Assembly: GCA_034717495.1 (NCBI GenBank)
Contig: JAYELL010000025.1
Location: forward strand, 25,900-89,899
DNA length: 64,000 nucleotides
DNA from: Chloroflexota bacterium
GTDB taxonomy: Bacteria; Chloroflexota; Anaerolineae; JAAEKA01
Direction of reading: 5' to 3'
Part shown: one piece after another, positions 36,818 to 58,855 of the stretch
Layout of the letters: each line of letters starts with the position of its first letter
Numbering within the stretch: position 1 is the first letter of the stretch
Notes under the pieces: model-generated
Told to the model about the DNA's origin: nothing
What the model saw: only the letters and a program-made list of their open reading frames with translations
The model's database searches: none
Translations under genes and position numbers: made by a program

Positions 36818-37009
36818 TGAGCAAATTGTAACACAAGGCTTGTGAAATGGGAAGGGTTGAAACCTTGACAAACAGGATGGTTCGATCTAGAATTGCCTCG
36901 CGAGCGAAGGCTCGCATCAGGGTTCCTGATGGCTCTGCCCATCTAGCCACGTTGCAGCCACTGTGAGGGCAATGTCACTGGAAAGTCCTCGTCCCGCATC
37001 GTCCGGTTC

Positions 37010-40816: not shown

Positions 40817-42526
40817 TTGAGTCATCAATACGGCGATCCAACCCTGGGCGATGGCGTTGGGCCACACTCGCCGGTCACTCTCTTTCGGCCACTGCCACTG
40901 CTCATTTCGGGGGGCTTGATCATTAGCGCTTTGATAGGTGTTTGGGCAGCCTACGACCGGGAACAAGCCTGGATGCGGTTCTCGCTCATCTCCATCGGTG
41001 TGGCACTGATGCTCGGCATTGCCTGGATGGGTTGGCGGGGACGAATGGATATACTGGGCATCTTTGGCCTGCTCTGTGCACTGCTTGGGGCAGCAATCGG
41101 TGCCTATTTCCTTCTGACCTTCGACTGGGCGGGCAATCAGGGAAAATTTGCGCCGATCCAAGCGGCAGGCCTCTGGCTTCAGGTCCATCGCCCCGCAATC
41201 CCGGTTCCCGAGGATATCAACGCCAATGTGGCTGGTAGCAGTCTGGCGATTCTTCTTCCACTGGGGGCTGTGGGCCTTTTCTGGGGATGGAGTCGCGACA
41301 AGCGTACCGTGGCGATCATCGCTGCCCTGTCGTTGCTCTTCGGGTTTCTGATTCTATTCCTGACGCAGTCCCGAGCAGCCTGGCTCGGACTGGCAGCCGG
41401 CCTGGCTGTGGCCCTCTACCTGGCAGTGCGACCAGGCCTGGAAAACTTCCCGCGCCGGCGTCTGCTGTTGGACCTGGTTGCTTTGGCAGGGGGGCTTCTT
41501 GTCCTTGTCCTCTTCTGGCTGGTGGCATCGAGCCCCACTCTTGCCGAATCGTTGGGCTCGATCGGCGTTGGTGTCAGCCTCACCAATCGCGCCGAGCTCT
41601 GGCGCGACGGGATGAACCTGGTAGCAGATTACCCCTTCACGGGCAGCGGCCTGGGCAGCACCATGATGGTCTACTCCACCTATGGACGGTTGTTGCATGT
41701 CGGATTTATCACCCATATGCACAATCTGTTCTTGCAGATCACCATCGAGCAGGGAATACCCGGGCTTCTTTTTTTTCTGCTGTTGCTTGTCCTGGCCTGG
41801 TGGAGTCTGCTAAGCGCCTACCGGTCGGGTGAAAACCGCTGCTTCTGCGTACCGGTGGCAGCATCCTTGGTCGCCCTGGTGGTGCAAGGCCTTGTCGACG
41901 TTGGTATTTATGCCAGCTACGCGCTTCCGGTTCTTTTCTTGCCCATCGGGTTTGCACTGGCCCTGGGGCAGCCACCCAGGGTACTCCGGCGAAGCAAGAA
42001 TGTCACCCTGGCACTGACGAGTGTATCGATCATCGTCGTGGCAATGTGTGTAGTGTTGATTGTACCTTCCAGTCAGGCTGCATTGCAAGCCAATCTGGGC
42101 GCCGTTGCCCAAACACAGCGGGAACTCTCCGCTTACAGCTGGCCCGAGTGGCCCATTCAGGATGCCCTCAGGCGCTCACCTGATATTGACCTGTCAGCTG
42201 CAATTGCCCGATACAAAGCAGCACTTGATCGTGATCCAAAGAATGCAACCGGCAACCGGCGACTGGGGCAGATTGAGCTTTCAAGAGGCAGGTATGAAGC
42301 GGCCCGATGGTACCTGGAAGCAGCGTATGCGACATCACCTCGTCAATCGGTGACCCGGCATCTGCTGGGCGAGGTATATGCCATCGATGGCGATCTGGAC
42401 CTGGCAACGTCCTTTCTTCGCAGCGTCGACATCGGCCATGGCCAGTTTCAGACCAGGGTATGGTGGTACGAAACTGTCGGCGAGACTGAAGGAGCTCAGC
42501 GGTTACGGGAAGCTGGCGGGTTTTGA
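40817..42526 (+). CDS. WaaL/O-antigen-ligase-family (Wzy_C) membrane protein with C-terminal TPR domain
   Basis: ~11 TM with LTQSRAAWLGLAAGLAVALYL Wzy_C block; C-terminal soluble TPR-like repeats. Confidence 0.7.
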   Translation: MSHQYGDPTLGDGVGPHSPVTLFRPLPLLISGGLIISALIGVWAAYDREQAWMRFSLISIGVALMLGIAWMGWRGRMDILGIFGLLCALLGAAIGAYFLLTFDWAGNQGKFAPIQAAGLWLQVHRPAIPVPEDINANVAGSSLAILLPLGAVGLFWGWSRDKRTVAIIAALSLLFGFLILFLTQSRAAWLGLAAGLAVALYLAVRPGLENFPRRRLLLDLVALAGGLLVLVLFWLVASSPTLAESLGSIGVGVSLTNRAELWRDGMNLVADYPFTGSGLGSTMMVYSTYGRLLHVGFITHMHNLFLQITIEQGIPGLLFFLLLLVLAWWSLLSAYRSGENRCFCVPVAASLVALVVQGLVDVGIYASYALPVLFLPIGFALALGQPPRVLRRSKNVTLALTSVSIIVVAMCVVLIVPSSQAALQANLGAVAQTQRELSAYSWPEWPIQDALRRSPDIDLSAAIARYKAALDRDPKNATGNRRLGQIELSRGRYEAARWYLEAAYATSPRQSVTRHLLGEVYAIDGDLDLATSFLRSVDIGHGQFQTRVWWYETVGETEGAQRLREAGGF

Positions 42527-42656: not shown

Positions 42657-43307
42657 ATGAAAAAACTATTCAGAAACCTTAGAAAATCCAAGCCTTCCTT
42701 GCCTGTGATCGTCGTTTCCGGTTTGCCTCGATCTGGAACGTCGATGATGATGAAAATGTTGGAAGCAGGTGGCCTGACGGTGGTAACCGACCAGATTCGT
42801 ACCGCGGACGAGGATAATCCAAAGGGATACTATGAGTTCGAACGGGTAAAACAGCTTGATAAGGGTGATACATCATGGGTATCCGACGCGCAGGGAAAAG
42901 TGGTCAAAGTAATCTCGGCCTTGTTGGAACACCTGCCACCTGACTATGACTACAACGTAATCTTCCTGCAGCGCAGTATCGAGGAAGTTTTGGCATCCCA
43001 GAAGAGAATGCTGGAACGTCGCGGGGAACCAACCGATCGGGTAAGTGATGAGGAGATGGCCCGCTTGTTTGCCAAGCACACTCAGAAAGTGGATCTGTGG
43101 TTAAACAGTCAGCCGAATATCTCAGTTCTCTATGTAGATTACAACGAGGTGGTGAGTAACCCCCATCAATCCGTAGGTCAGGCGAATCGATTCCTGGGCG
43201 GGCATTTGGATGAGCAAGCGATGATCTCAGCTGTCGATCCTCAACTCTATCGAAATCGGGCAAACCTGAACCAAATCTCAACTCGAGAAGACTCATTGTC
43301 AAAATGA
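42657..43307 (+). CDS. sulfotransferase-family protein (Sulfotransfer_3-like)
   Basis: 5'-PSB-like VVSGLPRSGTSMM near N-terminus, later RSIEEV.. 3'-PB-like block; soluble 216 aa; stop overlaps next start (ATGA). Confidence 0.6.
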   Translation: MKKLFRNLRKSKPSLPVIVVSGLPRSGTSMMMKMLEAGGLTVVTDQIRTADEDNPKGYYEFERVKQLDKGDTSWVSDAQGKVVKVISALLEHLPPDYDYNVIFLQRSIEEVLASQKRMLERRGEPTDRVSDEEMARLFAKHTQKVDLWLNSQPNISVLYVDYNEVVSNPHQSVGQANRFLGGHLDEQAMISAVDPQLYRNRANLNQISTREDSLSK

Positions 43308-43696
43308 ACCAACAGCTTCTGTCGTCATTGTGGCTGATCCTGGTGTCCACGATAGCTGGGGTAGCCGGTCAGGTTTCGCTCAAGCTGGGCATGAGCCAGC
43401 CGGGCGCTGAGGAGACGGTCTCAGAGGGTGTGTTGTCTCTGATAGCTTTGATTCTGCGCACTCCCCTGGTGTGGCTCGGACTGATGTTTTACGGGATAGG
43501 AGCGCTTGCCTGGATCGCCGTCTTGTCTCGTCTGGATCTTAGCGTGGCATACCCCTTTCTTGCCTTAAACTTTGTGTTGATTACTATCATATCCCGCCTG
43601 TTCCTTGGCGAGACTGTGCCCCTCCTTCGATGGGCAGGGATCGGTGTAATCGTAGTTGGTATTCTTCTGGTGGCGCGCAGCACTACGGCGTCATAA
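43304..43696 (+). CDS. 4-TM SMR/EamA-like flippase subunit (ArnE/ArnF/GtrA-like)
   Basis: 130 aa, 4 TM, EamA-like signature (LALNFVLITIISRLFLGE). Confidence 0.6.
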   Translation: MNQQLLSSLWLILVSTIAGVAGQVSLKLGMSQPGAEETVSEGVLSLIALILRTPLVWLGLMFYGIGALAWIAVLSRLDLSVAYPFLALNFVLITIISRLFLGETVPLLRWAGIGVIVVGILLVARSTTAS

Positions 43697-45233
43697 AAAC
43701 AAAGTGCACGAATCGCTTAGAAAACGCCACAACCGCTCCAAAGCTGGTACTTTGGTTTCCCTTTGTCTGCTGCTGGCAATTGCCGTGCCCTGGCTGGCTG
43801 GCACTGCCAAGGTATCGGCTGACCAACCAGTGATCTGGTCCAAACCGGTCAACTTATCCCAATCGGACGAGAGCTCGGTTCACCCGGCCATTGTCGCCGA
43901 CAGCATGGGGAATATCCACCTCTTTTGGAGTGAAGAGGTGGGTGGGGAACCGATGCTGCAGGACGAAATGGCCCGGCCTGGTAATACGATCCTCTATACT
44001 CGCTGGGACGGCCAATCATGGATCGAACCAAGGGATGTTCTGTACGTGCGGGGTGAATACCTTGGTGACTATGTTTCGGTCGCAATCGATGACAACAACC
44101 GGCTCCATGCAGTGTGGACGGGACTGGATAACATTTACTACAGTTCGGCGCCGGCGGCTGTAGCTGAGACAGCCCAGTCGTGGAGCAAACCGGTGGTGGT
44201 TGGAACCGGCAGCGCCCGCTCCGCCTTCGAGTCTGCTGTTGCTGTTGATTCACAAGGTGTTATTCATGTTGCCTATGGCGCCCGACGCGATGTGCCGGGA
44301 GTCAACTACGTGCAATCGAGCAACGGCGGCGAGACCTGGTCGGCGCCAGTGACATTGTCACTTCCCCTGGATCGTTTGGAGAGTGGCTATTCGCAGGTGC
44401 GCTTGGTGGTAGACAGTGCAGACCGAATCCATGCTACCTGGACAACCTTCCAGAGACAAGGCTTTGGCCAAGGTGTCTATCATAGTCGCAGCACAGATGG
44501 TGGTCTTACATGGAATACGCCCTACCGGCTCGCTTATCGAGAGGATGACGATATTTTCGTGGAGTGGCCCTATCTCACCGAGTTTGCCGACCAGGAACTG
44601 CGTGTGATCTTCACCGATGGTGATGGCAAGGGCCGGTTGCAGCGCATATCGACCGACGGGGGCGAAACCTGGGGTGAACCAACGGTCATCCTGACCGAAT
44701 TGGAAGGCATTAACGGCTATATCATTTCTCTGCTCGATGCCGCCGAGCAACCCCACTTGATCGCAAACATGCGTACCCGGTCTGACGGCACCGTCGGCCT
44801 GTTTTATGCCCCCGGCGCCGGGGGAGGCTGGCAACCGACTGTTCCGATCGCAACCGATCTACCCTACGGCCCCTCATCACACTATCCTGCAGCCGCCGTT
44901 CGCCTGGGCAATGAGATACACATCGTGTGGACCCAGTTGCGACGGGGTGAGATATGGCATATGAAGGGGGAGGTCTCCGGGGTTGAACCTCTTCCGGTGA
45001 TGGAGAGGCTTCCGCCACAAGAAGTTGTGCAGCCATCGCCTACGATTAGCATCTCTACACCAACCCCAGAACCGCTGGAAACGGTGGCACCATCCCGGGA
45101 GCGGGGCGTTGCCGGGCCGACGCCCGCGCCCGTTGCACCGCCATCGCCGCTCGGCGCAGTGCTACCCGGTATAACACTTTCGCTGCTCCTGGTGCTTGGT
45201 GTGATCGTTTGGAAGGGTGTTCGCGCCAGATAG
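43656..45233 (+). CDS. BNR/Asp-box repeat (sialidase-fold) exported protein with C-terminal TM anchor
   Basis: Asp-box repeats SNGGETWSAP, STDGGLTWNTP, STDGGETWGEP; signal peptide; C-terminal hydrophobic anchor; true start likely downstream of 43696 (non-ATG). Confidence 0.65.
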   Translation: MVFFWWRAALRRHKNKVHESLRKRHNRSKAGTLVSLCLLLAIAVPWLAGTAKVSADQPVIWSKPVNLSQSDESSVHPAIVADSMGNIHLFWSEEVGGEPMLQDEMARPGNTILYTRWDGQSWIEPRDVLYVRGEYLGDYVSVAIDDNNRLHAVWTGLDNIYYSSAPAAVAETAQSWSKPVVVGTGSARSAFESAVAVDSQGVIHVAYGARRDVPGVNYVQSSNGGETWSAPVTLSLPLDRLESGYSQVRLVVDSADRIHATWTTFQRQGFGQGVYHSRSTDGGLTWNTPYRLAYREDDDIFVEWPYLTEFADQELRVIFTDGDGKGRLQRISTDGGETWGEPTVILTELEGINGYIISLLDAAEQPHLIANMRTRSDGTVGLFYAPGAGGGWQPTVPIATDLPYGPSSHYPAAAVRLGNEIHIVWTQLRRGEIWHMKGEVSGVEPLPVMERLPPQEVVQPSPTISISTPTPEPLETVAPSRERGVAGPTPAPVAPPSPLGAVLPGITLSLLLVLGVIVWKGVRAR

Positions 45234-45251: not shown

Positions 45252-46031
45252 ATGCATCATTTCACTGAGCTGTTTGGGTATCGTGACCTGCTCTGGCTAT
45301 GGACCTTGCGAGAAGTCAGGGTACGGTATAAACAATCTTTCCTGGGCGTTGCCTGGGCGATCATTCAACCGCTGGCCCTGACTGTCGTCTTTACCGTCGT
45401 TTTTTCTTTTCTGCTTAAGATCGATACCGGGGATGTGCCCTATCCGGTTTTTGCCTATACTGGACTGGTCCCCTGGACGTTCTTTGCAACCTCGCTGGCT
45501 TTCGGGATTCCCAGCCTTGTCAACAATATGAATCTGGTCACAAAAATCTACTTTCCCCGGGAGATACTGCCCCTTGCCAGTATCGGAGCCGCCTTTGTAG
45601 ATTTTCTGATCGCCTGCGCGATTCTGGCCGGGTTGATGTTGATTTATCGGGTCTTTCCAGGAATCGAGGCCTTGTGGCTCGGCCCGCTGCTCTTGCTGCA
45701 GATCATTCTGAGTATCGGTGTGATTTTGCTGGGCGCTGCGCTCATTGTGTTCTTCCGCGATATTCGTTTCGTCGTACCCTTATTGACGCAGGTCTGGATG
45801 TATGCTACGCCAATCATCTACCCGGTGGATTTCGTACCTGAACAGTTGCGACCCTTCTATTTTCTGAATCCAATGGCCGGTATCATCGACGGATATCGAC
45901 GGGTGCTGATTTATGGTGAGGCGCCCAATATGCAAGCGCTGACATTGGCCACGATAGTGTCCGTGATACTGTTTGTGGTAGGATACCTGGTTTTCAAGCG
46001 AACAGAACCGGTATTTGCGGATATCATATGA
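45252..46031 (+). CDS. wzm: ABC-2 type polysaccharide exporter permease
   Basis: ABC-2 membrane protein (YKQSFLGVAWAIIQP...). Confidence 0.85.
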   Translation: MHHFTELFGYRDLLWLWTLREVRVRYKQSFLGVAWAIIQPLALTVVFTVVFSFLLKIDTGDVPYPVFAYTGLVPWTFFATSLAFGIPSLVNNMNLVTKIYFPREILPLASIGAAFVDFLIACAILAGLMLIYRVFPGIEALWLGPLLLLQIILSIGVILLGAALIVFFRDIRFVVPLLTQVWMYATPIIYPVDFVPEQLRPFYFLNPMAGIIDGYRRVLIYGEAPNMQALTLATIVSVILFVVGYLVFKRTEPVFADII

Positions 46032-47275
46032 CCGATCAACTTCCATTGGGGTCTGTAATTTGTGATAAGGTTTCCAAACGCTATCGACTGGGTGCGTTTG
46101 GATCATTGCGCGGCACGGTGTCATCCCTTTTCGAGCGGCGGAGTGAGGAAGAAGAGGCACAGCGTACTCTGTGGGCATTGCAGGATGTTAGCTTTCGGTT
46201 GCAGCCTGGCGAGTCACTGGGCTTGCTGGGTCCCAATGGTGCCGGAAAGACGACCACCCTGAAGCTCCTGTCGAAGATTACCAGGCCAACATCGGGCAAC
46301 ATTACACTGCTTGGGCGCTCCTCATCCTTAATCGAGTTGGGGGCGGGATTCCATCCGGAACTTACTGGCAAGGAGAATATCTTTCTGAATGGAGCGATTC
46401 TGGGATTGAGTCGCCACGAGATTCAACGGCGTCTTGATGAGATTATTGCATTCTCTGAATTGGAAAGGTTCATCGATACCCCTGTCAAACGTTACTCTTC
46501 AGGCATGTATGTCCGTCTTGGCTTTGCCGTGGCTGCCTACGTCGAGCCGAATGTGCTTCTGGTTGATGAAGTGTTGGCAGTGGGAGATATTAGCTTTCGG
46601 CAGCGCTGCATCAAACGAATGAAGGAGTTGCAGGAATCGGGCACGACAGTTATCTTTGTCTCTCACAACATGCATCTGGTTCGCAACATGTGTCAACGCT
46701 CGTTGCTCCTGGTTCATGGACAGATCCAGTCAGAGGGTCCCACAGATGATGTGATCGCAGACTATGAACGGCTAATCATGGGAACTGCCGAATTGGCGAA
46801 TGACAAGTCCCAGGACAAGGACCAGTCCCAGGTGTTGTCCGATGTCATTGTGCTGAATGTCGACGTAGCTCCCCTGACACCAAACGATAGGAACCTCATC
46901 GATTCGCATCAGTCTGGTGTAGTGACAATTCGTTACCGTACCCAGGCGCCCCGGGAAATCGGGCGTATCGATGTCCGCGTATTACGCGACGATGGCACAC
47001 TGTGTAGTTCACTTGATGCCAGGGCAGCCGCCAAAAACGATCCTCGATTCCGCCACCTGGATCGGGAAGGTTCGTTTGTCTTGACCTTTTCACCCATGCA
47101 GTTGACTTCAGGCACCTATTTCGTGCTCGTTCGTATTACCGACTCATCCGATGCCCTGGTTATCGCATCCGGACAATCCAAGTTATTTCAGGCCTACGCA
47201 GGCGACCTGCCTTCGCCGCCGGGGGTTTTTGTTCCCTCAGTTGCATGGGACGTCGGGAAAGAGAATCGAAGTTAG
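46028..47275 (+). CDS. wzt: polysaccharide exporter ATP-binding protein with C-terminal extension (Wzt)
   Basis: NBD (GPNGAGKTT, YSSGMYVRLGFA, LLVDEVLAVGD) plus ~170-aa beta-rich C-terminal extension. Confidence 0.8.
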   Translation: MTDQLPLGSVICDKVSKRYRLGAFGSLRGTVSSLFERRSEEEEAQRTLWALQDVSFRLQPGESLGLLGPNGAGKTTTLKLLSKITRPTSGNITLLGRSSSLIELGAGFHPELTGKENIFLNGAILGLSRHEIQRRLDEIIAFSELERFIDTPVKRYSSGMYVRLGFAVAAYVEPNVLLVDEVLAVGDISFRQRCIKRMKELQESGTTVIFVSHNMHLVRNMCQRSLLLVHGQIQSEGPTDDVIADYERLIMGTAELANDKSQDKDQSQVLSDVIVLNVDVAPLTPNDRNLIDSHQSGVVTIRYRTQAPREIGRIDVRVLRDDGTLCSSLDARAAAKNDPRFRHLDREGSFVLTFSPMQLTSGTYFVLVRITDSSDALVIASGQSKLFQAYAGDLPSPPGVFVPSVAWDVGKENRS

Positions 47276-47372
47276 TTGAAAATCCACAGCTTCAGGGGAA
47301 AGACTTTTCGTGACCCACGCAGGGTTTCGCGGAGTCTCGAAATCGGACAAACAGTTCCCGGGTGAGAATCGC

Positions 47373-49109
47373 ATGGATATTGGCGCAATAGGTTGGTGGC
47401 ATCACGATAACCACGGTGACTGGGCGATGCTGAATGCCCTGACGCACGCTATGAAGCCACATCGCATCGTGCCGATTGATACCGGCTTTGAGGTCAATGA
47501 GGACACGCTCTATCGTCTAAATCGGCTTGATTTTCTTATCCTTGGCGGTGGCACGTTGATGCGCGAGAGGCCTGTCGAACCCTTTGACCGATTCGATAGT
47601 TGGGGCGAATATCTTACAACTCCTATTGGCATTGCGGGGATGGGTGTCGAGACCGTGGCCCCTAACTATGCAGACGCGATGGGAGCATTGTTGGACAAAA
47701 GTGAGTTCTTCTACGTCCGGGATCAGACCAGCCTGGCGTTGCTGGATCATCCCAAAGCCCGTTATGCTCCCGATCTCACATTTTCTCAGCCGTTGCCAAT
47801 TGCCGGGGCCAGGTCCGTGGTCGAAGGACGATCACCTCTTTGCGGTGTCAATCTTCGTCGGCTTCCCGGGGATGTTTTGACGAACTGGATCGATGTTCTT
47901 CAACAATTGCCGGTGGAGTTTCGGGGCATTTCGCTCTCTTCCCATCCCGAGTTCTCTGAGGGCGGGTTGTTGCGACAACTGGATCCTCAGTATCCGGATG
48001 GCTTTGACCCGCGCTCTTATGCCGATCTTAACCTGATGATTGGCACCGCCTTTCATTCGGTGGTCTACGCCATTCAATCGGCGATCCCCGTGATCGCGAT
48101 CGCCTATGCGCCAAAGGTCCGACGGTTGATGACTGATATCGGTCTCGGCGACTTCGTGCTTGAGCCAACGGAGTGGGACCTCCTGCCCGGGCTGGTACAG
48201 ACGGCCATCGAGAGGCAAGAGGAAATGGCCGAGCGGTTGAGGGAGACCACGACTGAGTTGACTCGGGCCGCCAACGCCAACGCAACAGCGATCAAAGAAC
48301 ATATCGAGGCCGTCGCCCAACCACATGAACGGCTTGGTCCCAGGGTCAGCATCGCCGTTCTGGTAACGGGCAGTGATGAAGAAACCAGGCGAACGATCCA
48401 ATCCTGTTTGGACCAGACCCATGAGAATGTAGAAGTGGTCGTTGTAGCCAATCAAGCTGGTGAGCCAGAGCTCGGAACGGAACATTCTGACCAGATCCGT
48501 ATCATTCGAATGGAACGCGAGTCAGAGGCGGGCGATCTTCTGCAAGCCGGGTTGCTAGAAGCTGACGGTTGCTATGTGACCTGGATCCGCTCCGGGGATC
48601 GTTTCACGCGGGATGCTATTGACTGCATGGTCAGCTGGCTGGAAGCCGATAGCATGTGCGATATGGTCTATTCGGATTATTTCGTGACCGGTGGTCATGA
48701 TCGCATCTTGGATTGGCAAGTAGTACACCCTGCCTACAAACTCTTTCGGCGCAACGTGGTTGGACCCTGTTTCCTGCTGCGGACATCACTTATGTCGGAC
48801 CTTGGCATGCACCATGCTACCTCGCTCTTGCCCGACTATGACTACTGGTTGCGTGCCCAGAACGAGGGTGAGCTCGAACCCCGGCATACCAGGCTCTTTT
48901 ACCGTCACATTTCCAATGGCGCCATCGATGATCCGGTCGAGGAACAGCAGGTGCGACGGGAGTGGATTGCCGGTTTGCCGCTATCGCGTCAAGTAGTGTG
49001 GCGGGTCCGGGATAACAATTTTATCAACCAACAGGTGATTCCCTGGTCGATGGCAGCTGCTCGCAACGTGGCAGGAACACTCAAGCAAAGCCGCAGGGAC
49101 CAGGACTAA
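47373..49109 (+). CDS. fusion protein: polysaccharide pyruvyl transferase (CsaB/WcaK-like) + GT2-like domain
   Basis: N-terminal IGAIGWWHHDNHGDWAMLNAL...ILGGGTL (PS_pyruv_trans); C-terminal VSIAVLVTGSDEE...VEVVVV, DYDYW (GT2-like). Confidence 0.65.
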   Translation: MDIGAIGWWHHDNHGDWAMLNALTHAMKPHRIVPIDTGFEVNEDTLYRLNRLDFLILGGGTLMRERPVEPFDRFDSWGEYLTTPIGIAGMGVETVAPNYADAMGALLDKSEFFYVRDQTSLALLDHPKARYAPDLTFSQPLPIAGARSVVEGRSPLCGVNLRRLPGDVLTNWIDVLQQLPVEFRGISLSSHPEFSEGGLLRQLDPQYPDGFDPRSYADLNLMIGTAFHSVVYAIQSAIPVIAIAYAPKVRRLMTDIGLGDFVLEPTEWDLLPGLVQTAIERQEEMAERLRETTTELTRAANANATAIKEHIEAVAQPHERLGPRVSIAVLVTGSDEETRRTIQSCLDQTHENVEVVVVANQAGEPELGTEHSDQIRIIRMERESEAGDLLQAGLLEADGCYVTWIRSGDRFTRDAIDCMVSWLEADSMCDMVYSDYFVTGGHDRILDWQVVHPAYKLFRRNVVGPCFLLRTSLMSDLGMHHATSLLPDYDYWLRAQNEGELEPRHTRLFYRHISNGAIDDPVEEQQVRREWIAGLPLSRQVVWRVRDNNFINQQVIPWSMAAARNVAGTLKQSRRDQD

Positions 49110-49120
49110 GAAGATGAGTC

Positions 49121-50320
49121 ATGCTCACAGTTAGCGCCATCGTGGTGACCTTCAATCGAGCAGACTATCTTCCCGAGGCGCTTGACAGCATTTTCTCGCA
49201 GGAGATGCCGCCGCTGGAAGTCATTGTCGTCGACGACGGATCCGTTGACGATACGAAGGAAGTCGTTGGCAGCTATGGCGACCGGATTCTGTATGTATGG
49301 CAGGAGAACCAGGGTGTATCCGCTGCGCGGAATCGGGGTCTTTCTGTTGCTCAAGGCGACTTGATCGCCTGGCTTGACTCGGATGATGCCTGGCAGCCTG
49401 CGTTCCTGTCGACCCTTGTGCAGCGCATCGAGCGTGATCCAGGTGTCGATGGCGCCTACAGCGGGAGAGTTTATATCGACAGCGAAGGAAAGGCACTTTC
49501 CCAATCGGTGCGAGTGGAACCGGACGAAGCGTTATATGCCAGTTTGATTGAGGATAACTTCCTCACGACTTCCTCGCTTATCGTTAAACGAAGCTGTTAT
49601 GAATCGGCCGGTCCATTTGACCGTCAGTTCCGTATCGGTGAGGATTACGATATGTGGCTTCGTTTCGCCCGGCGACACAGGATTGTTGGCATGCCGGAAC
49701 CTCTGGTAAGATACAGGGTGCACAGTGGCAATACCGTGGCGGATGCCGACAAATATAAATACTACCGGCTTGCGTTGACCGGGAAGCAGTTTGGTGAACT
49801 GGGCAGTGACCGCGATCAATGGACCGAAGAAGCACGACTTGCCCACGGATTTTCCTTTCGATCCGTTGCCTTCAACTACTTCCAGGCAGGTCAGATGGAC
49901 GAAGGGTGGTACTACCTGCAGCAGGCGATATCGATATATCCGGATATTCTGGAGCGCCTTGACACCTACTACGAAGTGCTCTGCGGAGATCAGCCCTTGG
50001 GTCTGCGAGGCCAGGCGCAATTGTTGGATATCGATGCCAATAGTGCAGATTTGCTAAGACGGTTGGATGCCCTGTTTTACGAAGGTGGCAATACTCTGCA
50101 GCCGCGACGGCCCGCCGCTTACGGCAACGCTTACCTCGCCATGGCCATGCTGAATGATCAGGCTGGCAATTGGTCGCAGGCCCGGCGTTGCATCGCCCGA
50201 GCGATTCGGCACTATCCCGCTTTGCTTGGCCAGCAAGGTGTGTTGCGGCGTTTCGTCAAGTTGTCGGTGGGCCAGTCAGGAGCAGAACTGGGAAGATCGT
50301 TTTTGGATCGGTCGCCCTGA
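49121..50320 (+). CDS. GT2 glycosyltransferase with C-terminal helical/TPR-like domain
   Basis: VSAIVVTFNRADYL, VIVVDDGSVDDT, DSDD motifs. Confidence 0.8.
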   Translation: MLTVSAIVVTFNRADYLPEALDSIFSQEMPPLEVIVVDDGSVDDTKEVVGSYGDRILYVWQENQGVSAARNRGLSVAQGDLIAWLDSDDAWQPAFLSTLVQRIERDPGVDGAYSGRVYIDSEGKALSQSVRVEPDEALYASLIEDNFLTTSSLIVKRSCYESAGPFDRQFRIGEDYDMWLRFARRHRIVGMPEPLVRYRVHSGNTVADADKYKYYRLALTGKQFGELGSDRDQWTEEARLAHGFSFRSVAFNYFQAGQMDEGWYYLQQAISIYPDILERLDTYYEVLCGDQPLGLRGQAQLLDIDANSADLLRRLDALFYEGGNTLQPRRPAAYGNAYLAMAMLNDQAGNWSQARRCIARAIRHYPALLGQQGVLRRFVKLSVGQSGAELGRSFLDRSP

Positions 50321-50359
50321 CGATTGAGTTCGTTGCTGTTGTCGATTGAGAAGAAATCA

Positions 50360-51613
50360 ATGCGTTTCCTTTTCTTATCCAATTTATATCCGCCGGCCCA
50401 TTTGGGAGGCTGGGAGTTGATGTGTCGCGACATTGCGGGCGCGTTCATTGACCGCGGTCACCAGGTGGAGGTTTTGACGAGTCGCTTCCAAAAGGAAATG
50501 ATTGAGCAGGATGATCCCAATATCCATCGGGAACTGTATCTGGAAAGCGATGTCCACCATTACAATCCAGTTGACTATTTCCTGCAATCGCAACGGAACG
50601 ACGAACGAAACTTCGAGACGCTAACCCGGAATATTCAGGACTTCCAGCCCGATGCTGTGGTGGTGTGGGGCATGTGGCTGCTGAATCCGCAGTTGGCTGC
50701 GCTGGCGGAAAAGCTATGTCCCGGCCGGGTTGCCTATTATTTCTGCGGCTATTGGCCCATCGAAGAGGACCCGCACAGCCAGTACTGGCGCGCCTTCGTT
50801 GATAACAAGCGGTTGCCGGGATGGCTCAGTCAACGAATCAGCCGGCAGGCGTTGGCACGGCAGGAGAACCGCTCGAAAGATCAACTCGAATTCCGACATG
50901 TGACATGCGTGAGCCAGGCGGTACTGGACATACTGAGAGAAGGTGGTATCCCCTTACCGAATGCAACTGTAACCTACAATGGCATCGATCTGGATGAGTT
51001 CTATGCGCCCCTGGACCAAAAGGGATTCCACACCCCATTGCGCTTGATGTATGCGGGCAGCCTGGGTGCCAACAAGGGTGTGGATACAGCGGTACAGGCG
51101 GTTGCGCTGCTTTCCAAGAAGTTCAGCCCGGGAGATGTTCACCTGACTCTTGTTGGGAAAGGGCATCCCGCCTTCGAGGATCAGTTGCACCAGATTATCG
51201 GGGATGCCGGGATTGAGCAGTTTGTGACGATGACCGGCTGGATCGATCGCGTTGAGATGCCGCAAGTTTTGCACCAGCACGACGTACTGCTGTTTCCTTC
51301 CAGATGGCCTGAACCATTGGCGCGCATGATGATGGAGGGCATGGCGGCCGGCTTAACCCTGGTGAGCACCACCACCGGTGGCACTGCGGAGTTCCTTGAA
51401 CATCGTCAAAACAGCCTGACATTTGAAGCTGGCGATGCAGTGGATCTGGCTCATCAGATTGACTGCCTGCTTTCCGAGCCCGGCCTGGCAAGGCGATTGG
51501 CGAAGGCTGGCCAGGAATTAGCCCTTGAGCAGTTTGACGAGAATCGCATGTACGACGAAATCGAAGAATTCGCTGTGCAGGCCGCGCAGCAGACCTCTTC
51601 GGTCTCGCCATAG
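50360..51613 (+). CDS. GT4 (GT-B) glycosyltransferase
   Basis: MRFLFLSNLYPPAHLGGWE N-terminus; C-terminal EPLARMMMEGMAAGLTLVSTTTGG (E-x7-E region). Confidence 0.8.
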   Translation: MRFLFLSNLYPPAHLGGWELMCRDIAGAFIDRGHQVEVLTSRFQKEMIEQDDPNIHRELYLESDVHHYNPVDYFLQSQRNDERNFETLTRNIQDFQPDAVVVWGMWLLNPQLAALAEKLCPGRVAYYFCGYWPIEEDPHSQYWRAFVDNKRLPGWLSQRISRQALARQENRSKDQLEFRHVTCVSQAVLDILREGGIPLPNATVTYNGIDLDEFYAPLDQKGFHTPLRLMYAGSLGANKGVDTAVQAVALLSKKFSPGDVHLTLVGKGHPAFEDQLHQIIGDAGIEQFVTMTGWIDRVEMPQVLHQHDVLLFPSRWPEPLARMMMEGMAAGLTLVSTTTGGTAEFLEHRQNSLTFEAGDAVDLAHQIDCLLSEPGLARRLAKAGQELALEQFDENRMYDEIEEFAVQAAQQTSSVSP

Positions 51614-51641
51614 AGACCTGGTCAGGAGGCCACCGGAAGTC

Positions 51642-52895
51642 GTGCGTATCCTTTTCCTGAGCAATTACTATCCACCCCTGGAAGTGGGCGGATATGAGCA
51701 GTTGTGCCGGGATGTCGCTGAACGCCTTGCCGGGCGTGGCCATACAATTGCGGTTTTGACGTCGACTTACGGCCTGGGAAAAGAGCCGGTCGGACAGGAT
51801 GTGGATTACGATGTGCATCGGTTGCTGAGGTTACAGCCCGATTTCGACCGCCGGCTTGGTGCCACGCTGCAGTTCTTTTTGACGCGTCAACCGGATGAAC
51901 AATACGACCTGGCATGCTTCAGGAAGGTTATTGCCGAATTCGATCCCGTTGTGATCTCGATCTGGAACATGCAAAGGTTGCCCCGGTCCCTGGCGCTGGA
52001 GGCGGAGGCACTCCCGGATACAGGCGTGGCCTATTGGGTGGCCAGTTCTACCCCGGCCGAACCCGACGAGTTCTGGCGGTATTGGGACCTGGTTCCCCCC
52101 AACCCGTGGAAGGCCCGCTTCAAAGGGTTGTTTAGCGATCGGGCCTTGCGCACTATGCAAGCCGAAGGCCATCCCCTGCAGCCCGAGATGAAACACGTGG
52201 GCGTTGTCAGTAATTTCATGCGCGAGAGAGGAATCGACGACGGAACATTGCCTTCCTGGACGAAGGTCATCTATAACGGCGTGGAGATCGATTCCTTTTT
52301 TCAACCAGTGCAGCCGTTAGGCGAGGGGCCAATGTGTTTCCTGCAGGCCGGCCGTGTCAGTGATGACAAAGGTGTGCATACAGCCATTGAGGCGGTCGGA
52401 TTGGCGGTTCAGAAATCGGGCCTCGGAAACGTCCGCCTTGTTATTGCAGGATCTGGTCCGGCGGATTACCGGCAGCGACTGGACGAGTTGGTAAAGCGGT
52501 ACCAGATAGAGGAACAAGTCGTTTTCACTGGCTGGTTGCCGCGGGAACAGATGCCGGCGCTTATGGCTGAAAGCCATGTGCTGCTGTTGCCGACTACTCA
52601 TCAGGAGCCCTTTGCCCGGGTAGTCCTGGAAGCAATGGCCAGCGGGCTGGCTGTTGTCGCCACGCCTACTGGCGGAACCGAAGAGATCGTCCAGCATGGC
52701 AAAACGGGCCTGCTGTTTCCGGTCGGTGACAGCAAAAAACTCACTGACCAAATTGGAGGCCTGGTTGAAAACGACGATTTCAGAATTCAACTGGCTGAAG
52801 CAGGCCAACATCTGGTCGCTCAGCGGTATAGCCTGGAGCATATGGTCGACGAGATCGAGAATCTGCTGAATCTGGCGACCAGTGACGGATCATAA
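51642..52895 (+). CDS. GT4 (GT-B) glycosyltransferase
   Basis: GTG start after AGGAGG; VRILFLSNYYPPLEVGGYE; EPFARVVLEAMASGLAVVATPTGG. Confidence 0.8.
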   Translation: MRILFLSNYYPPLEVGGYEQLCRDVAERLAGRGHTIAVLTSTYGLGKEPVGQDVDYDVHRLLRLQPDFDRRLGATLQFFLTRQPDEQYDLACFRKVIAEFDPVVISIWNMQRLPRSLALEAEALPDTGVAYWVASSTPAEPDEFWRYWDLVPPNPWKARFKGLFSDRALRTMQAEGHPLQPEMKHVGVVSNFMRERGIDDGTLPSWTKVIYNGVEIDSFFQPVQPLGEGPMCFLQAGRVSDDKGVHTAIEAVGLAVQKSGLGNVRLVIAGSGPADYRQRLDELVKRYQIEEQVVFTGWLPREQMPALMAESHVLLLPTTHQEPFARVVLEAMASGLAVVATPTGGTEEIVQHGKTGLLFPVGDSKKLTDQIGGLVENDDFRIQLAEAGQHLVAQRYSLEHMVDEIENLLNLATSDGS

Positions 52896-52976
52896 TGTCA
52901 CCATGTCAATATGTCAAAATGATATCTTGGCATCATGACATTGTAGCATCATGACATTGTGACATTCTTGCAACTC
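52893..52976. repeat. array of direct repeats (gcatcatgacattgt x2) and 6 TGTCA/TGACA half-sites in intergenic region
   Basis: cataatgtcaccatgtcaatatgtcaaaatga...gcatcatgacattgtagcatcatgacattgtgacattc read directly. Confidence 0.6.
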
Positions 52977-54197
52977 ATGCGCATCTTATTCCTGGCAACG
53001 TGGTTCCCGTTCCCACCTGATAATGGCTCAAAAATCAGGGACTTCAACCTGTTAAGAGAATTAGGAAGGACTCACGATGTGACATTGGTGGCCTTCGCTT
53101 TTGACACCGCCACTCCCGATCGAGCAGAGCCATTGAATGAGTTTTGCACACAGATTGAGGTGGTCCCGATCGATCCGTTCGATCGGGGAGAGCAGGCTGA
53201 AATTTTCAGGTTTTTGTCCCCCGCGCCCATTGTCGATAAACCGGTGCCCGAGATGGAAGCGCTGGTGGAAAAAATCCTCCGGGACAACACCTTTGATGCT
53301 GTAATTGCGTCTACAACAGTGATGGCAACCTATGCCCTCCAGGCCAGGAATGCCTGCAAGATTCTACAGGAGCACAATTTTCACACCATCTGGACATTGG
53401 ACCGGTACCAAAATGAAACAACTTTGCCTGGCAAAATGCAGGCCTGGGTGAGTCTGCAAAAACGGCGCCGCTATGACGACAAGCTGTTCTCCCAGTTTGA
53501 TCTCTGTGCCATGGTATCGGAGAGGGATCGGGATGCCACGCTCAGGATGTTGCCTCGCTTCGACGGTCCTGTGGCCGTGGTTCCCAATGGTGTAGATTGT
53601 CAGCACAATCATCCCGGGCTGGCCGGGGTGGTACCCGATAGCCTGATTTACAACGGAGCTCTCACCTATTACACCAATCATGATGCCATGGCTTTCTTTC
53701 TCTCGGAAGTCTTCCCCCTGGTGCGCCAACAGGTGCCACAGGCACAGGTGACCATCACGGGATCGACCAAGGGTGTTGATGTTGACTCCCTGCCATTGGG
53801 CGGCGGCGTCCATCTCAGCGGGTATGTCGACGATATTCGGCCATTGGTAGCGGCAGCCAGGGTCTGTATTGTGCCCTTGCGGCTAGGTGGTGGATCCAGG
53901 CTGAAGGTGTTGGAAGCGATGGCACTTGGAACGCCAGTGGTAGCCACAAAAAAGGGTGCAGAAGGCCTGGACGTCGTGGACGGCAAGCATATCCTGGTGG
54001 CCGACAGTCCGTTGGAATTCGCGTCGGCCACCATCAGGTTGCTGCAAGAGGACGCGTTGAGAGATGAATTGTCCGCCAACGCACGCCAGCTGGTCGAGCA
54101 GCAGTATGACTGGTCCAGGATAGGGCAGCAATTCGTATCGTTGGTTGAACAGACTACTCGCGAGTGCCAGGACCCTGAGCGGGACAAGTTAGTATGA
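52977..54197 (+). CDS. GT4 (GT-B) glycosyltransferase
   Basis: MRILFLATWFPFPPDNGSKIR; ...GGGSRLKVLEAMALGTPVVATKKG. Confidence 0.8.
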   Translation: MRILFLATWFPFPPDNGSKIRDFNLLRELGRTHDVTLVAFAFDTATPDRAEPLNEFCTQIEVVPIDPFDRGEQAEIFRFLSPAPIVDKPVPEMEALVEKILRDNTFDAVIASTTVMATYALQARNACKILQEHNFHTIWTLDRYQNETTLPGKMQAWVSLQKRRRYDDKLFSQFDLCAMVSERDRDATLRMLPRFDGPVAVVPNGVDCQHNHPGLAGVVPDSLIYNGALTYYTNHDAMAFFLSEVFPLVRQQVPQAQVTITGSTKGVDVDSLPLGGGVHLSGYVDDIRPLVAAARVCIVPLRLGGGSRLKVLEAMALGTPVVATKKGAEGLDVVDGKHILVADSPLEFASATIRLLQEDALRDELSANARQLVEQQYDWSRIGQQFVSLVEQTTRECQDPERDKLV

Positions 54198-58109: not shown

Positions 58110-58855
58110 ACGCAATGGAATTTGACGAGGTTGCCCTGCAAAAGGTGCGTGAAGATCGACTTCTGATCGACGAGCTCGACCGCTGGCTCTACGACGAGAT
58201 CAGGCCTTTTTTCGGCCAACGGGTTCTCGATGTCGGTTGCGGCCTGGGTAATTTCGCACGGCATTTAACTGCTAAGGACTTATATATTGGCACCGATGTT
58301 TCGCCGGCCAGTGTCGCTGCCGTGAACAAGACCTACGGTGCCTATCCGAATATGCACGCCCAGGTCGCAAACGCTACCGATCCCCGCTTTCGAAAATTCA
58401 AACGATTCGAGATCGACACGGTATTTTCTTTGAACGTGTTTGAACACATAGACGATCATGAGACCGCTCTTGAGAATGTGGCCTATGTTCTGAAACCAGG
58501 TGGTGTATTGATCCTGGTCGTTCCCGCCCACAAGTGGCTTTATGGAAGTATCGATCGCTCCATTGGGCACTACAGGCGCTATGACATGACGTTGCTAGCC
58601 GAAATGTTTCGAGAGGTTGGCATCAATTGTGTCAAACTGAAGTACATCAACGCCCTGGGCGCGGTGGGATGGTTTGCAAATGGGCGTGTTCGCAGGCAGG
58701 ATACACCGCCTTCGGGCCAGTTAAAGCTGTTCAACAAGTTGGTTCCGTTGATCAGGCGATTCGAGAGTCTGGTGCCGGTTCCCTTCGGTATCTCCTTGCT
58801 GGCTGTCGCCAGAAAGGGATCATCATTGGCGCCGGAATTGAACGGCAAATCATGA
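58106..58855 (+). CDS. class I SAM-dependent methyltransferase
   Basis: Motif I VLDVGCGLGNF; stop overlaps next start (ATGA). Confidence 0.8.
   Translation: MNAMEFDEVALQKVREDRLLIDELDRWLYDEIRPFFGQRVLDVGCGLGNFARHLTAKDLYIGTDVSPASVAAVNKTYGAYPNMHAQVANATDPRFRKFKRFEIDTVFSLNVFEHIDDHETALENVAYVLKPGGVLILVVPAHKWLYGSIDRSIGHYRRYDMTLLAEMFREVGINCVKLKYINALGAVGWFANGRVRRQDTPPSGQLKLFNKLVPLIRRFESLVPVPFGISLLAVARKGSSLAPELNGKS

What the first reader, a model, noticed from the sequence alone, without database searches (positions are those of the whole stretch)
45252..47275. Wzt ATPase carries a C-terminal extension, which suggests a capped, length-controlled polymer
The Wzt NBD is followed by an ~170-aa beta-rich extension. 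In E. coli O9a-type pathways the Wzt C-terminal carbohydrate-binding domain recognises the chain terminator (methyl/phosphate) before export. Here the cluster encodes a SAM-methyltransferase (58106-58855) and a sulfotransferase (42657-43307) that are candidate terminators.
Basis: inference. Interest (0 to 1): 0.55.

Follow-up and report, generated by a model that had tools for sequence, protein, structure and literature searches.

The report
Sugar-binding tail on glycan exporter ATPase

Summary
Window 45252-47275 holds two overlapping genes: wzm (45252-46031) and wzt (46028-47275, 415 aa). After the ABC ATPase domain (residues ~1-250) and a disordered linker, residues ~272-411 form a beta-sandwich. 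A confident AlphaFold model of this tail has as its best PDB matches all three characterised Wzt carbohydrate-binding domains (A. aeolicus, E. coli O9a, R. terrigena O12; TM 0.52-0.68). The tail is kept in all 119 closest homologues, and 27 of 37 of their tails match Pfam Wzt_C. The window's own copy scores below the cutoff.

The sulfotransferase is absent from 16 related loci analysed by tblastn. The methyltransferase is paired with a PMT_2 membrane glycosyltransferase and can lie 34.5 kb from wzt, or in a locus with no wzt nearby. What always travels with this Wzt is the module BNR_2 - Wzm - Wzt - pyruvyl transferase - GT2 - GT4s. The pyruvyl transferase lies downstream of wzt wherever downstream DNA is held.

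My best reading is a Wzt-type cap-reading exporter for a surface glycan of a Chloroflexota bacterium. A pyruvate ketal is the leading cap candidate, by inference only. This is a new member of a known kind and of moderate interest.

The parts
45252..46031 (+). wzm: ABC-2 type permease of the glycan exporter
   Evidence: PF01061 ABC2_membrane E 3.7e-17; weak hits to galactan Wzm and KpsM models. 58-70% identical orthologues lie beside wzt in related loci.
46028..46777 (+). wzt, nucleotide-binding domain (residues 1-250), including the hinge helix 239-257
   Evidence: ABC_tran E 1.4e-22. The best PDB match is A. aeolicus Wzt NBD, E ~1e-61, 40-41% identity in the Foldseek alignment. The start overlaps the wzm stop as ATGA.
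46778..46840 (+). wzt, flexible NBD-CBD linker (residues 251-271)
   Evidence: pLDDT <50 at 260-269 and no conservation among homologues.
46841..47275 (+). wzt, C-terminal beta-sandwich carbohydrate-binding-domain-like tail (residues 272-411, then a short end and the stop)
   Evidence: AF2 tail model pLDDT 87. Top Foldseek PDB hits are the Wzt CBDs 8dne/8dku/6o14/8dky, 2r5o and 5hno/5hnp (E 1e-4 to 8e-4, TM 0.52-0.68). Pfam Wzt_C is sub-threshold here (19.3-21.9 bits against 30.4) but matches 27 of 37 relatives' tails, best 1.3e-11. Conserved motifs are GRIDVRxxRxDGTLC, PxQLTxGxY, ITDxSD, ASGQS and GVxVPxxxW.
47310..49109 (+). Pyruvyl transferase fused to a GT2-like domain (probable true start ATG at 47373): the leading candidate cap-adding enzyme
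   Evidence: PS_pyruv_trans 43.4 bits (cutoff 25.3); CsaB TIGR03609 E 6.6e-10, below its cutoff. It is found downstream of wzt in every related locus with downstream DNA, and overlaps wzt by 29 nt in L021. The PyrT half has dense invariant motifs. The GT2-like half has few and no conserved DxD.
43656..45233 (+). BNR_2 beta-propeller protein with a C-terminal Pro/Thr-rich linker and TM anchor; a conserved member of the module, role unknown
   Evidence: PF13088 E 4.5e-12. It lies immediately upstream of wzm in L001-L005, L008, L012, L014, L015, L020, L021 and the P0100 place.
49121..50320 (+). GT2 glycosyltransferase with C-terminal TPR; conserved module member
   Evidence: Glycos_transf_2 E 5e-34 plus TPR hits. 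40-50% identical orthologues are present in 10 loci.
50324..54197 (+). Three GT4 glycosyltransferases (50324-51613, 51525-52895, 52959-54197); the first two are conserved module members
   Evidence: Glycos_transf_1 and Glyco_transf_4 hits; tblastn presence in related loci.
42657..43307 (+).
   Evidence: Sulfotransfer_3/_1 E ~1e-9. Found in 0 of 16 related loci by tblastn although it lies well inside their flanks. No PDB relative.
58106..58855 (+).
   Evidence: Methyltransf_11 E 1e-16. It overlaps PMT_2 by 4 nt. The same pair occurs in L018 and L019. Its orthologue is 34.5 kb from wzt on contig_11380. No WbdD-like PDB match.
40817..42526 (+). Wzy_C + TPR membrane protein: candidate ligase or O-oligosaccharyltransferase for the exported glycan
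   Evidence: Wzy_C E 1e-23 plus TPR_16/19. The same architecture is described for WsfB and PglL (PMC2943079). Orthologues are present in L004 and L014.
61353..62843 (+). Polyprenyl-phosphate hexose-1-phosphate transferase (WbaP/WsaP-like initiator)
   Evidence: Bac_transf E 8e-64 plus CoA_binding_3. The same gene follows the PMT_2-MTase pair in L018.

Best explanation
wzm-wzt encode a type-V (Wzm/Wzt) ABC exporter for a lipid-linked surface polysaccharide of a Chloroflexota bacterium. The last ~140 residues of Wzt are a divergent member of the Wzt C-terminal carbohydrate-binding domain family. By analogy with the E. coli O9a, R. terrigena O12 and A. aeolicus systems, the domain most likely binds the modified non-reducing end of the finished polymer and so admits only completed chains to the channel.

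The enzyme most likely to make the recognised end structure is the pyruvyl transferase encoded directly downstream of wzt (47310/47373-49109). A pyruvate ketal blocks two hydroxyls of the terminal sugar and adds a carboxylate.

The sulfotransferase and the PMT_2-linked methyltransferase are accessory decoration genes. The exported glycan would then be transferred by one of the two Wzy_C proteins to its final acceptor, a surface protein or a wall component.

Shown: gene structure, fold, family link, conservation and synteny. Inferred: ligand binding, the gating role, the cap's identity and length control.
For: Fold and family:
- The tail model (pLDDT 87) best matches the three solved Wzt CBDs.
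- The full-length model matches full-length A. aeolicus Wzt over ~400 columns at E ~1e-34, against ~1e-25 for NBD-only chains.
- The full-length profile aligns into the A. aeolicus CBD up to chain residue 356.
- 27 of 37 relatives' tails hit Pfam Wzt_C.

Conservation:
- The tail is present in all 119 homologues.
- The segment aligned with the A. aeolicus cap-binding strand and trap loop is the tail's most conserved motif, ITDxSD (PMC9445017).

Synteny:
- The pyruvyl transferase follows wzt in the window, L001-L009, L011-L014, L020, L021 and the P0100 place. This includes tails only ~28% identical. In L021 the two genes overlap by 29 nt.
- This is the position of the terminator gene wsaE in Geobacillus (PMC2943079). 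It is also the position of wbdD in E. coli O9a (my own knowledge).
- The PyrT half carries dense invariant motifs.

Precedent (PMC10629545):
- WbbZ pyruvylation of a terminal Gal prematurely terminates O1 polymerisation in vitro.
- Pyruvate has been proposed, without validation, as a chain terminator in some proteobacteria.

Pocket chemistry (tentative):
- The A. aeolicus methyl-pocket residue Leu300 aligns with Arg/Lys317.
- R313 and R320 are also conserved.
- This fits an anionic cap better than a methyl cap.
Against: - No ligand binding was tested, and none can be tested here.
- The window's own tail is below the Pfam Wzt_C cutoff. It is only 8-13% identical to solved CBDs, and generic Ig-like sandwiches (CARDB, RhoGDI, NPC2) score nearly as well in Foldseek.
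- Synteny does not separate a terminal cap from pyruvylation of every repeat unit. The GT2 and GT4 genes are as conserved as the pyruvyl transferase.
- All the loci come from one phylum with collinear clusters, so they are not independent observations.
- Residue equivalences for positions 317 and 330 rest on HMM alignment columns with posterior of only ~0.5-0.6.
- Arg317 is replaced by hydrophobic residues in about a quarter of the wider tail set (sequences).
- No coiled-coil 'ruler' was identified, so length control is unsupported beyond the analogy.
- Other methyltransferases occur near wzt in some relatives, for example a 197-aa Methyltransf_23 between wzt and the pyruvyl transferase in L020.
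Confidence: 0.55

Rival explanations
1. One reading: the CBD reads a methyl or sulfate cap installed by the SAM-methyltransferase (58106-58855) or the sulfotransferase (42657-43307), as WbdD does in E. coli O8/O9a.
For: Both genes lie in the same single-strand cluster. Methyl and methyl-phosphate caps dominate the known and predicted CBM-linked systems (PMC10629545). L018 shows a Sulfotransfer_3 gene and the methyltransferase in a collinear cluster. The methyltransferase is itself well conserved in Chloroflexota, at 55-66% identity.
Against: The sulfotransferase is absent by tblastn from all 16 related loci that keep the CBD motifs. The methyltransferase's fixed partner is PMT_2. It lies 34.5 kb from wzt on one contig, and in L019 there is no wzm/wzt within 10 kb. 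It is a stand-alone 249-aa class-I domain without kinase or coiled coil, and no WbdD match passes E 1e-3. The A. aeolicus methyl-pocket residues do not appear to be kept: Leu300 aligns with Arg317, Ala348 with a variable R/Q/G, and no equivalent of Trp362 falls within the aligned region. Caveat: the ±10-kb flanks did not reach the methyltransferase's position in most loci, so its absence there is uninformative.
Confidence: 0.15
2. The cap is a distinctive terminal sugar added by one of the conserved glycosyltransferases (GT2-TPR 49121-50320 or a GT4), as Kdo is added in Klebsiella O4/O12. The pyruvyl transferase modifies internal repeats or that terminal sugar only secondarily.
For: GT2-TPR and two GT4 genes are as conserved with the CBD as the pyruvyl transferase. 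Sugar caps read by Wzt CBDs are established (5hno; PMC11231755). CsaB-type enzymes pyruvylate every repeat in P. alvei (PMC10629545).
Against: No GT99 or Kdo-transferase-like gene, and no sugar-nucleotide pathway for an unusual sugar, was seen in the conserved module. The gene position directly after wzt favours the pyruvyl transferase.
Confidence: 0.15
3. The tail is a CBD-fold domain that does not gate export by reading a cap. It might bind the polymer backbone or the lipid-linked primer, or serve only in dimerisation or ATPase regulation.
For: Sequence identity to the characterised CBDs is 8-13% and the Pfam score is sub-threshold. The beta-sandwich fold is generic. The A. aeolicus cap-contact residues are not conserved.
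Against: There is strong purifying selection on specific surface-type motifs (R313, R320, D322, ITDxSD, ASGQS) across relatives whose tails are only about 38% identical. The aligned position of the most conserved motif coincides with the known cap-binding strand and trap loop. In every studied Wzt with this domain it binds the chain terminus (PMC9445017, PMC11231755).
Confidence: 0.15

Closest known systems
A. aeolicus WzmWzt O-antigen ABC transporter with C-terminal CBD (PDB 7K2T, 8DKU, 6O14, 8DKY)
   Same: It has the same two-gene exporter and the same NBD-hinge helix-linker-beta-sandwich architecture. It is the best sequence and fold match for both domains.
   Different: The tail is only ~13% identical. 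The residues that hold the 3-O-methyl cap there (Leu300, Ala348, His350, Trp362) are not conserved here. The host is a Chloroflexota bacterium, probably without LPS (my own knowledge). The neighbouring candidate cap enzyme is a pyruvyl transferase.
E. coli O9a / Klebsiella O3 Wzt-CBD with the WbdD terminator (PDB 2R5O)
   Same: A CBD-fold tail on Wzt (TM 0.52), with a candidate modifying enzyme encoded directly after wzt.
   Different: There is no WbdD-like kinase-methyltransferase or coiled-coil ruler. Initiation is by a PHPT (Bac_transf) rather than by WecA, which initiates O9a-type O antigens according to PMC2943079. The product is probably not an LPS O antigen.
S-layer glycan (slg) ABC-transporter pathway of Geobacillus stearothermophilus and Paenibacillus alvei (PMC2943079)
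   Same: It occurs in Gram-positive hosts and has WbaP-type PHPT initiation together with Wzm/Wzt. The wzm, wzt and terminator genes overlap. It has Wzy_C (+TPR) O-oligosaccharyltransferases, and Asn-synthase homologues occur in the clusters.
   Different: The cap there is 2-O-methyl-rhamnose, made by the methyltransferase domain of WsaE. No S-layer protein gene or rml genes are seen in the window. The acceptor here is unknown.
Klebsiella pneumoniae O1b terminal pyruvate (WbbZ), and the proposed pyruvate terminators in B. vietnamiensis and P. protegens (PMC10629545)
   Same: A pyruvyl transferase acts on the non-reducing terminus of an ABC-transporter-dependent glycan. Pyruvylation terminates polymerisation in vitro.
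   Different: The O1 transporter has no CBM and exports chains with or without pyruvate. The proteobacterial CBM-plus-pyruvate candidates are unvalidated. The enzyme here is CsaB-like by NCBIfam, and no sequence relation to WbbZ or Pvg1p was detectable.

Membership tests
Wzt C-terminal carbohydrate-binding domain (Pfam PF14524 Wzt_C) | Domain fused directly to the C-terminus of a Wzt-type NBD, after the hinge helix and a linker | tested here: met
   NBD residues 1-250, linker 251-271 and beta domain 272-411. In all full-length family members the tail sits at ~252-415.
Wzt C-terminal carbohydrate-binding domain (Pfam PF14524 Wzt_C) | Match to the Wzt_C profile above the curated gathering score | tested here: inconclusive
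   The window protein scores 19.3 bits (full length) and 21.9 bits (tail alone) against a cutoff of 30.4. However, 27 of 37 homologous tails match at E<=0.01, best 1.3e-11, and some homologues carry a precomputed PF14524 hit.
Wzt C-terminal carbohydrate-binding domain (Pfam PF14524 Wzt_C) | Beta-sandwich (jelly-roll) fold superimposable on solved Wzt CBDs | tested here: met
   The Foldseek top hits are 8dne/8dku/6o14/8dky, 2r5o and 5hno/5hnp, with E 1e-4 to 8e-4 and TM 0.52-0.68. Caveat: generic Ig-like sandwiches score close behind.
Wzt C-terminal carbohydrate-binding domain (Pfam PF14524 Wzt_C) | Dimer stabilised by exchange of the C-terminal beta-strands | not tested
   Only monomer models were made. 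A conserved final strand, GVxVPxxxW (residues 399-407), follows a long loop, which is compatible with strand exchange but not evidence for it.
Wzt C-terminal carbohydrate-binding domain (Pfam PF14524 Wzt_C) | Specific binding of the non-reducing terminal cap, and a requirement for that binding in export | not testable with these tools
   This needs binding assays and genetics. The only indirect support is conservation of the segment aligned to the A. aeolicus cap-binding strand and trap loop.
Wzm/Wzt type-V polysaccharide ABC exporter | ABC-2 permease gene adjacent to an NBD gene of the Wzt/TagH subfamily | tested here: met
   PF01061 permease. The NBD's best PDB matches are A. aeolicus Wzt, TarH/TagH and mycobacterial Wzt. 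The two genes overlap as ATGA.
O9a-type WbdD terminator / molecular-ruler system | Multidomain terminator (methyltransferase with or without kinase) carrying an extended coiled coil | tested here: not met
   The cluster methyltransferase is a stand-alone 249-aa class-I domain, and no WbdD chain appears among its PDB matches at E<=1e-3. No kinase domain was found in the cluster. Coiled coils were not searched for formally.
Polysaccharide pyruvyl transferase (PF04230; CsaB/WcaK/WbbZ class) | Match to PS_pyruv_trans above cutoff, with family motifs conserved among orthologues | tested here: met
   43.4 bits against a cutoff of 25.3. CsaB TIGR03609 gives E 6.6e-10, below its own cutoff. There are 65 invariant positions in the PyrT half across 8 orthologues. 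Mapping onto the catalytic residues of 5AX7/6X1L failed because there was no sequence hit.
S-layer / surface-protein O-glycosylation (slg-type) cluster | PHPT initiator + Wzm/Wzt + Wzy_C(-TPR) oligosaccharyltransferase + glycosylated surface protein | tested here: inconclusive
   The first three components are present. No S-layer or SLH protein was found in the window. The BNR_2 protein with a Pro/Thr-rich stalk is a possible target, but this was not tested.

The most novel reading that the evidence does not exclude
A phylum-wide Chloroflexota module (BNR_2 - Wzm - Wzt-CBD - pyruvyl transferase - GTs) in which the Wzt carbohydrate-binding domain reads a terminal pyruvate ketal. This would be the first lineage in which pyruvate acts as both chain terminator and export ticket. 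The chemistry has been proposed for a few proteobacteria but never validated. The pocket would be arginine-lined rather than a methyl pocket. Because pyruvylated wall polymers anchor SLH-domain proteins in other bacteria, the check could ensure that only anchoring-competent chains reach the surface.
Probability: 0.35. Interest if true: 0.6.

Novelty: new member of a known kind. Interest (0 to 1): 0.4.

Why it matters
CBD-bearing Wzt transporters are the best-understood example of coupling polymer completion to export, but every validated case reads methyl, methyl-phosphate or Kdo on an LPS O antigen. This locus extends the architecture to Chloroflexota, an abundant, mostly uncultured phylum. 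It also supplies a well-defined conserved gene module in which a different, anionic cap (a pyruvate ketal) can be tested directly with a soluble ~140-residue domain and one enzyme. For annotation, it shows that picking 'the methyltransferase in the cluster' as terminator can mislead. Comparative synteny points to a different gene here.

Tried and rejected
1. Sequence searches of the tail against the PDB, with the single sequence and with a 37-sequence profile, found no CBD. Only the fold comparison and the full-length profile linked it to solved CBDs.

The tighter alignment A3 gave only 5 genome and 7 metagenome loci.

4. A profile of the pyruvyl-transferase half did not reach 5AX7 or 6X1L, so the PEP-binding residues could not be mapped.

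5. The Mann et al. 2019 survey of CBM-linked terminators is not held. Its content is cited only through PMC10629545 and PMC11231755.

6. I considered the fusion protein as a bifunctional terminator that adds a terminal sugar and then pyruvylates it. I rejected this as the default because the GT2-like half lacks a conserved DxD and is absent from the 432-aa orthologue in L021.

7. I considered the sulfotransferase as cap enzyme, given the nearby SulP sulfate permease. I rejected it on its absence from related loci.

8. The promoter and terminator scan of the cluster showed nothing beyond chance, apart from one strong promoter-like site at 36865-36893.
Full report
WHAT IS THERE

The finding's coordinates span two genes on the + strand. 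ORF 45252-46031 (259 aa) is an ABC-2 type permease (PF01061, E 3.7e-17), with weak similarity to galactan Wzm and KpsM models. ORF 46028-47275 (415 aa) starts inside the stop codon of the first, as an ATGA overlap. It is an ABC ATPase of the Wzt/TagH subfamily. Its best solved relatives are the A. aeolicus Wzt NBD and full-length Wzt (E ~1e-61, query residues 46-251), followed by TarH/TagH and mycobacterial Wzt. An identical protein is already deposited as 'MAG: polysaccharide ABC transporter ATP-binding protein [Chloroflexota bacterium]' on a 94-kb contig.

THE EXTENSION

Beyond the NBD lie 165 residues. In an AlphaFold2 model built from 67 homologues (mean pLDDT 85.7), residues 239-257 form the hinge helix, 260-269 are disordered, and 272-411 form an all-beta domain with pLDDT about 88-94. 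A tail-only model gave pLDDT 87 with ten strands. Foldseek of the tail against 350,542 PDB chains returned all three experimentally characterised Wzt carbohydrate-binding domains among its best hits:
- A. aeolicus (8dne, 8dku, 6o14, 8dky; TM up to 0.68)
- E. coli O9a (2r5o; TM 0.52)
- R. terrigena O12 (5hno, 5hnp; TM 0.56-0.58)

The E-values are 1e-4 to 8e-4 at only 8-13% identity. Generic Ig-like sandwiches (CARDB, RhoGDI, NPC2) follow closely, so the fold alone is not diagnostic. Four independent lines make the assignment firm:
(i) The domain sits at the C-terminus of a Wzt.
(ii) The full-length model matches full-length A. aeolicus Wzt over ~400 columns at E ~1e-34, against ~1e-25 for NBD-only chains.
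(iii) A full-length profile aligns continuously into the A. aeolicus CBD, to chain residue 356.
(iv) Pfam Wzt_C is sub-threshold for the window protein (19.3-21.9 bits against 30.4) but matches 27 of 37 homologous tails, best E 1.3e-11.

Direct sequence searches of the tail against the PDB found nothing.

CONSERVATION

All 119 best homologues (52-60% identity, 92-100% query coverage, almost all 403-439 aa; one is a 673-aa Wzm-Wzt fusion) keep the tail. Median identity is 38% over ~136 residues, against 69% for the NBD. Conserved motifs are GRIDVRxxRxDGTLC, PxQLTxGxY, ITDxSD, ASGQS and GVxVPxxxW. An exhaustive profile search of 1.84 billion cluster representatives found 782 members at E<=1e-3 and 121 at E<=1e-10. 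In all full-length members the tail lies at about residues 252-415. The named genome loci are all Chloroflexota MAGs: Anaerolineae, Thermoflexales and Chloroflexia.

THE CLUSTER

From ~37.0 kb to at least 62.8 kb the window carries a single-strand glycan locus. In order:
- hexapeptide acyltransferase
- GT2
- B12-radical-SAM protein
- Wzy_C+TPR protein
- sulfotransferase
- small ArnE/F-like EamA protein
- BNR_2 protein
- Wzm and Wzt
- pyruvyl transferase fused to a GT2-like domain
- GT2+TPR
- three GT4
- Wzy_C protein
- GT2
- PMT_2 (GT-C)
- SAM-methyltransferase
- GT2
- GT4
- WbaP-type PHPT

Chloroflexota are generally regarded as lacking LPS (established knowledge, not tested here), so this is probably not an LPS O antigen. 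The closest complete analogue is the ABC-transporter-dependent S-layer glycan pathway of Geobacillus and Paenibacillus (PMC2943079). That pathway likewise combines a WbaP-type initiator with Wzm/Wzt and has overlapping wzm-wzt-terminator genes. It uses Wzy_C O-oligosaccharyltransferases; WsfB and PglL also carry C-terminal TPRs.

WHICH ENZYME MAKES THE CAP?

I collected the neighbourhoods of homologous Wzt genes (L001-L016, L020, L021 and the P0100 place). I then ran tblastn with all 21 window cluster proteins against the first 16 loci.

The recurrent module is BNR_2 - Wzm - Wzt - pyruvyl transferase - GT2(TPR) - GT4 - GT4, often followed by another GT4 and a Wzy_C gene. The pyruvyl transferase is found downstream of wzt in every locus with enough downstream DNA. 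This includes Wzt proteins whose tails are only ~28% identical to the window's (P0117). In that locus (L021) it is a 432-aa protein without the GT2-like half, and it overlaps the end of wzt by 29 nt. Zero to three variable ORFs may be inserted between the two genes.

The sulfotransferase lies 2.7 kb upstream of wzt in the window, well inside the flanks of the related loci, yet none of the 16 has a counterpart.

The methyltransferase lies 10.8 kb downstream, just beyond the flanks, so I tested it separately. It has many 55-66% identical homologues. Their constant neighbour is a PMT_2 gene: a 4-nt overlap in the window, and the same pair in L018 and L019. On contig_11380 the orthologue is 34.5 kb from wzt. 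In L019 there is no wzm/wzt within 10 kb. It is a stand-alone class-I domain whose best solved relatives are phosphoethanolamine N-methyltransferases, and no WbdD chain passes E 1e-3.

The pyruvyl transferase does. It also occupies the position that the terminator gene wsaE holds in Geobacillus and that wbdD holds in E. coli O9a (my own knowledge).

IS THE PYRUVYL TRANSFERASE PLAUSIBLE AS A TERMINATOR?

Its N-terminal half matches PS_pyruv_trans above cutoff and CsaB below cutoff. That half is densely invariant among orthologues (GWW..N.GD, GG, VRD..S, NLR, GTAxH, K). The GT2-like half has few invariant positions and no conserved DxD, so it may be non-catalytic. The true start is probably the ATG at 47373.

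The literature gives a precedent (PMC10629545). Klebsiella WbbZ puts a pyruvate ketal on the terminal Gal of the O1 antigen and prematurely terminates polymerisation in vitro. The O1 transporter, however, lacks a CBM. [quoted passage not shown]

POCKET CHEMISTRY (TENTATIVE)

I used the HMM alignment to A. aeolicus Wzt and the cap contacts published for that protein (PMC9445017). The chain numbering is the paper's numbering plus one.

| A. aeolicus residue | Role | Window equivalent |
|---|---|---|
| Leu300 | methyl pocket | Arg317 (R or K in all loci in hand) |
| Asn313 | sugar contact | Asp330 |
| Thr346 | methyl pocket | Leu367 |
| Ala348 | methyl pocket | position 369 (variable R/Q/G) |
| His350 | sugar contact | Thr371 |

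No counterpart of the methyl-stacking Trp362 lies in the aligned region. R313 and R320 are also conserved. This fits a cap other than O-methyl, possibly an anionic one. However, the first three equivalences have alignment posteriors of only ~0.5-0.6. Arg317 is also hydrophobic in about a quarter of the wider family (sequences).

LIMITS

Nothing here shows ligand binding, gating or length control. These follow by analogy from the studied systems. Synteny cannot separate a terminal cap from pyruvylation of every repeat. The glycosyltransferases are as conserved as the pyruvyl transferase, and all loci come from one phylum with collinear clusters. No WbdD/WbbB-type coiled-coil ruler was found, though coiled coils were not searched for formally.

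VERDICT

In detail: this is a genuine, conserved, divergent Wzt-type CBD. A cap-reading exporter is the most likely function (about 0.55-0.7). The proposed methyl and sulfate terminators are not supported by comparative evidence. A pyruvate ketal made by the adjacent pyruvyl transferase is the leading candidate (about 0.35-0.4). CBM-linked Wzt transporters are known to be widespread, so this is a new member of a known kind. A pyruvate-reading CBD would be a new variant worth testing.

Noticed in passing
window 43656-45233 (+); also L001-L005, L008, L012, L014, L015, L020, L021: A BNR_2 beta-propeller protein sits immediately upstream of wzm in the window and in nearly every related locus. It has an N-terminal signal or TM segment, a C-terminal Pro/Thr/Ser-rich stalk and a TM anchor. 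It is as conserved a neighbour as the pyruvyl transferase. Its role is unknown; it could be an extracytoplasmic glycan-processing enzyme or the glycosylation target.
   Followed up: partly
window 56655-58855 (+); L018 8585-10708; L019 8599-10708: The PMT_2 (GT-C) gene and the SAM-methyltransferase form a conserved, overlapping gene pair that also occurs away from wzm/wzt. Together with the small ArnE/F-like EamA protein (43304-43696) and the GT2 genes, this looks like a separate post-export decoration route using polyprenyl-phosphate sugars.
   Followed up: partly
window 48320-49109 (+), residues ~340-599 of the pyruvyl-transferase fusion: The GT2-like C-terminal half has few invariant residues and no conserved DxD. 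It is missing from the 432-aa orthologue in L021. It may be a degenerate, non-catalytic scaffold domain. A ~45-residue helical, charged linker (residues 296-340) joins the two halves.
   Followed up: partly
window 40817-42526 and 54194-55627 (+): There are two Wzy_C-domain membrane proteins in an ABC-transporter-type cluster, which needs no Wzy polymerase. The first carries C-terminal TPRs, as the O-oligosaccharyltransferases WsfB and PglL do. This suggests protein O-glycosylation or ligation to a wall acceptor.
   Followed up: no
window 39106-40815 (+); L004 1-1347: A B12-binding radical-SAM enzyme sits inside the glycan cluster and is also present in L004. It matches HpnJ-like and class-B methylase-like models at 194 bits, below the cutoff. 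It may be a C-methylase or another modifier of a sugar.
   Followed up: no
L002, L003, L020 and the P0100 place, upstream or downstream of wzt: Asparagine-synthase homologues, AMP-binding enzymes, DUF362 and Acyl_transf_3 genes recur next to the module in relatives but not in the window. P. alvei's S-layer glycan cluster also has an Asn-synthase homologue (wsfA).
   Followed up: no
window 36865-36893 (+): The best sigma-70-like promoter match in the region (TTGACA-17-TAGAAT, 11 of 12) lies just upstream of the first cluster gene at 37010. Downstream genes are tightly spaced or overlapping on one strand, consistent with one long operon.
   Followed up: no
window 34400-36574 (-): A SulP sulfate permease with STAS and rhodanese domains lies just outside the cluster, near the accessory sulfotransferase. 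No PAPS-synthesis genes were seen in the window.
   Followed up: no
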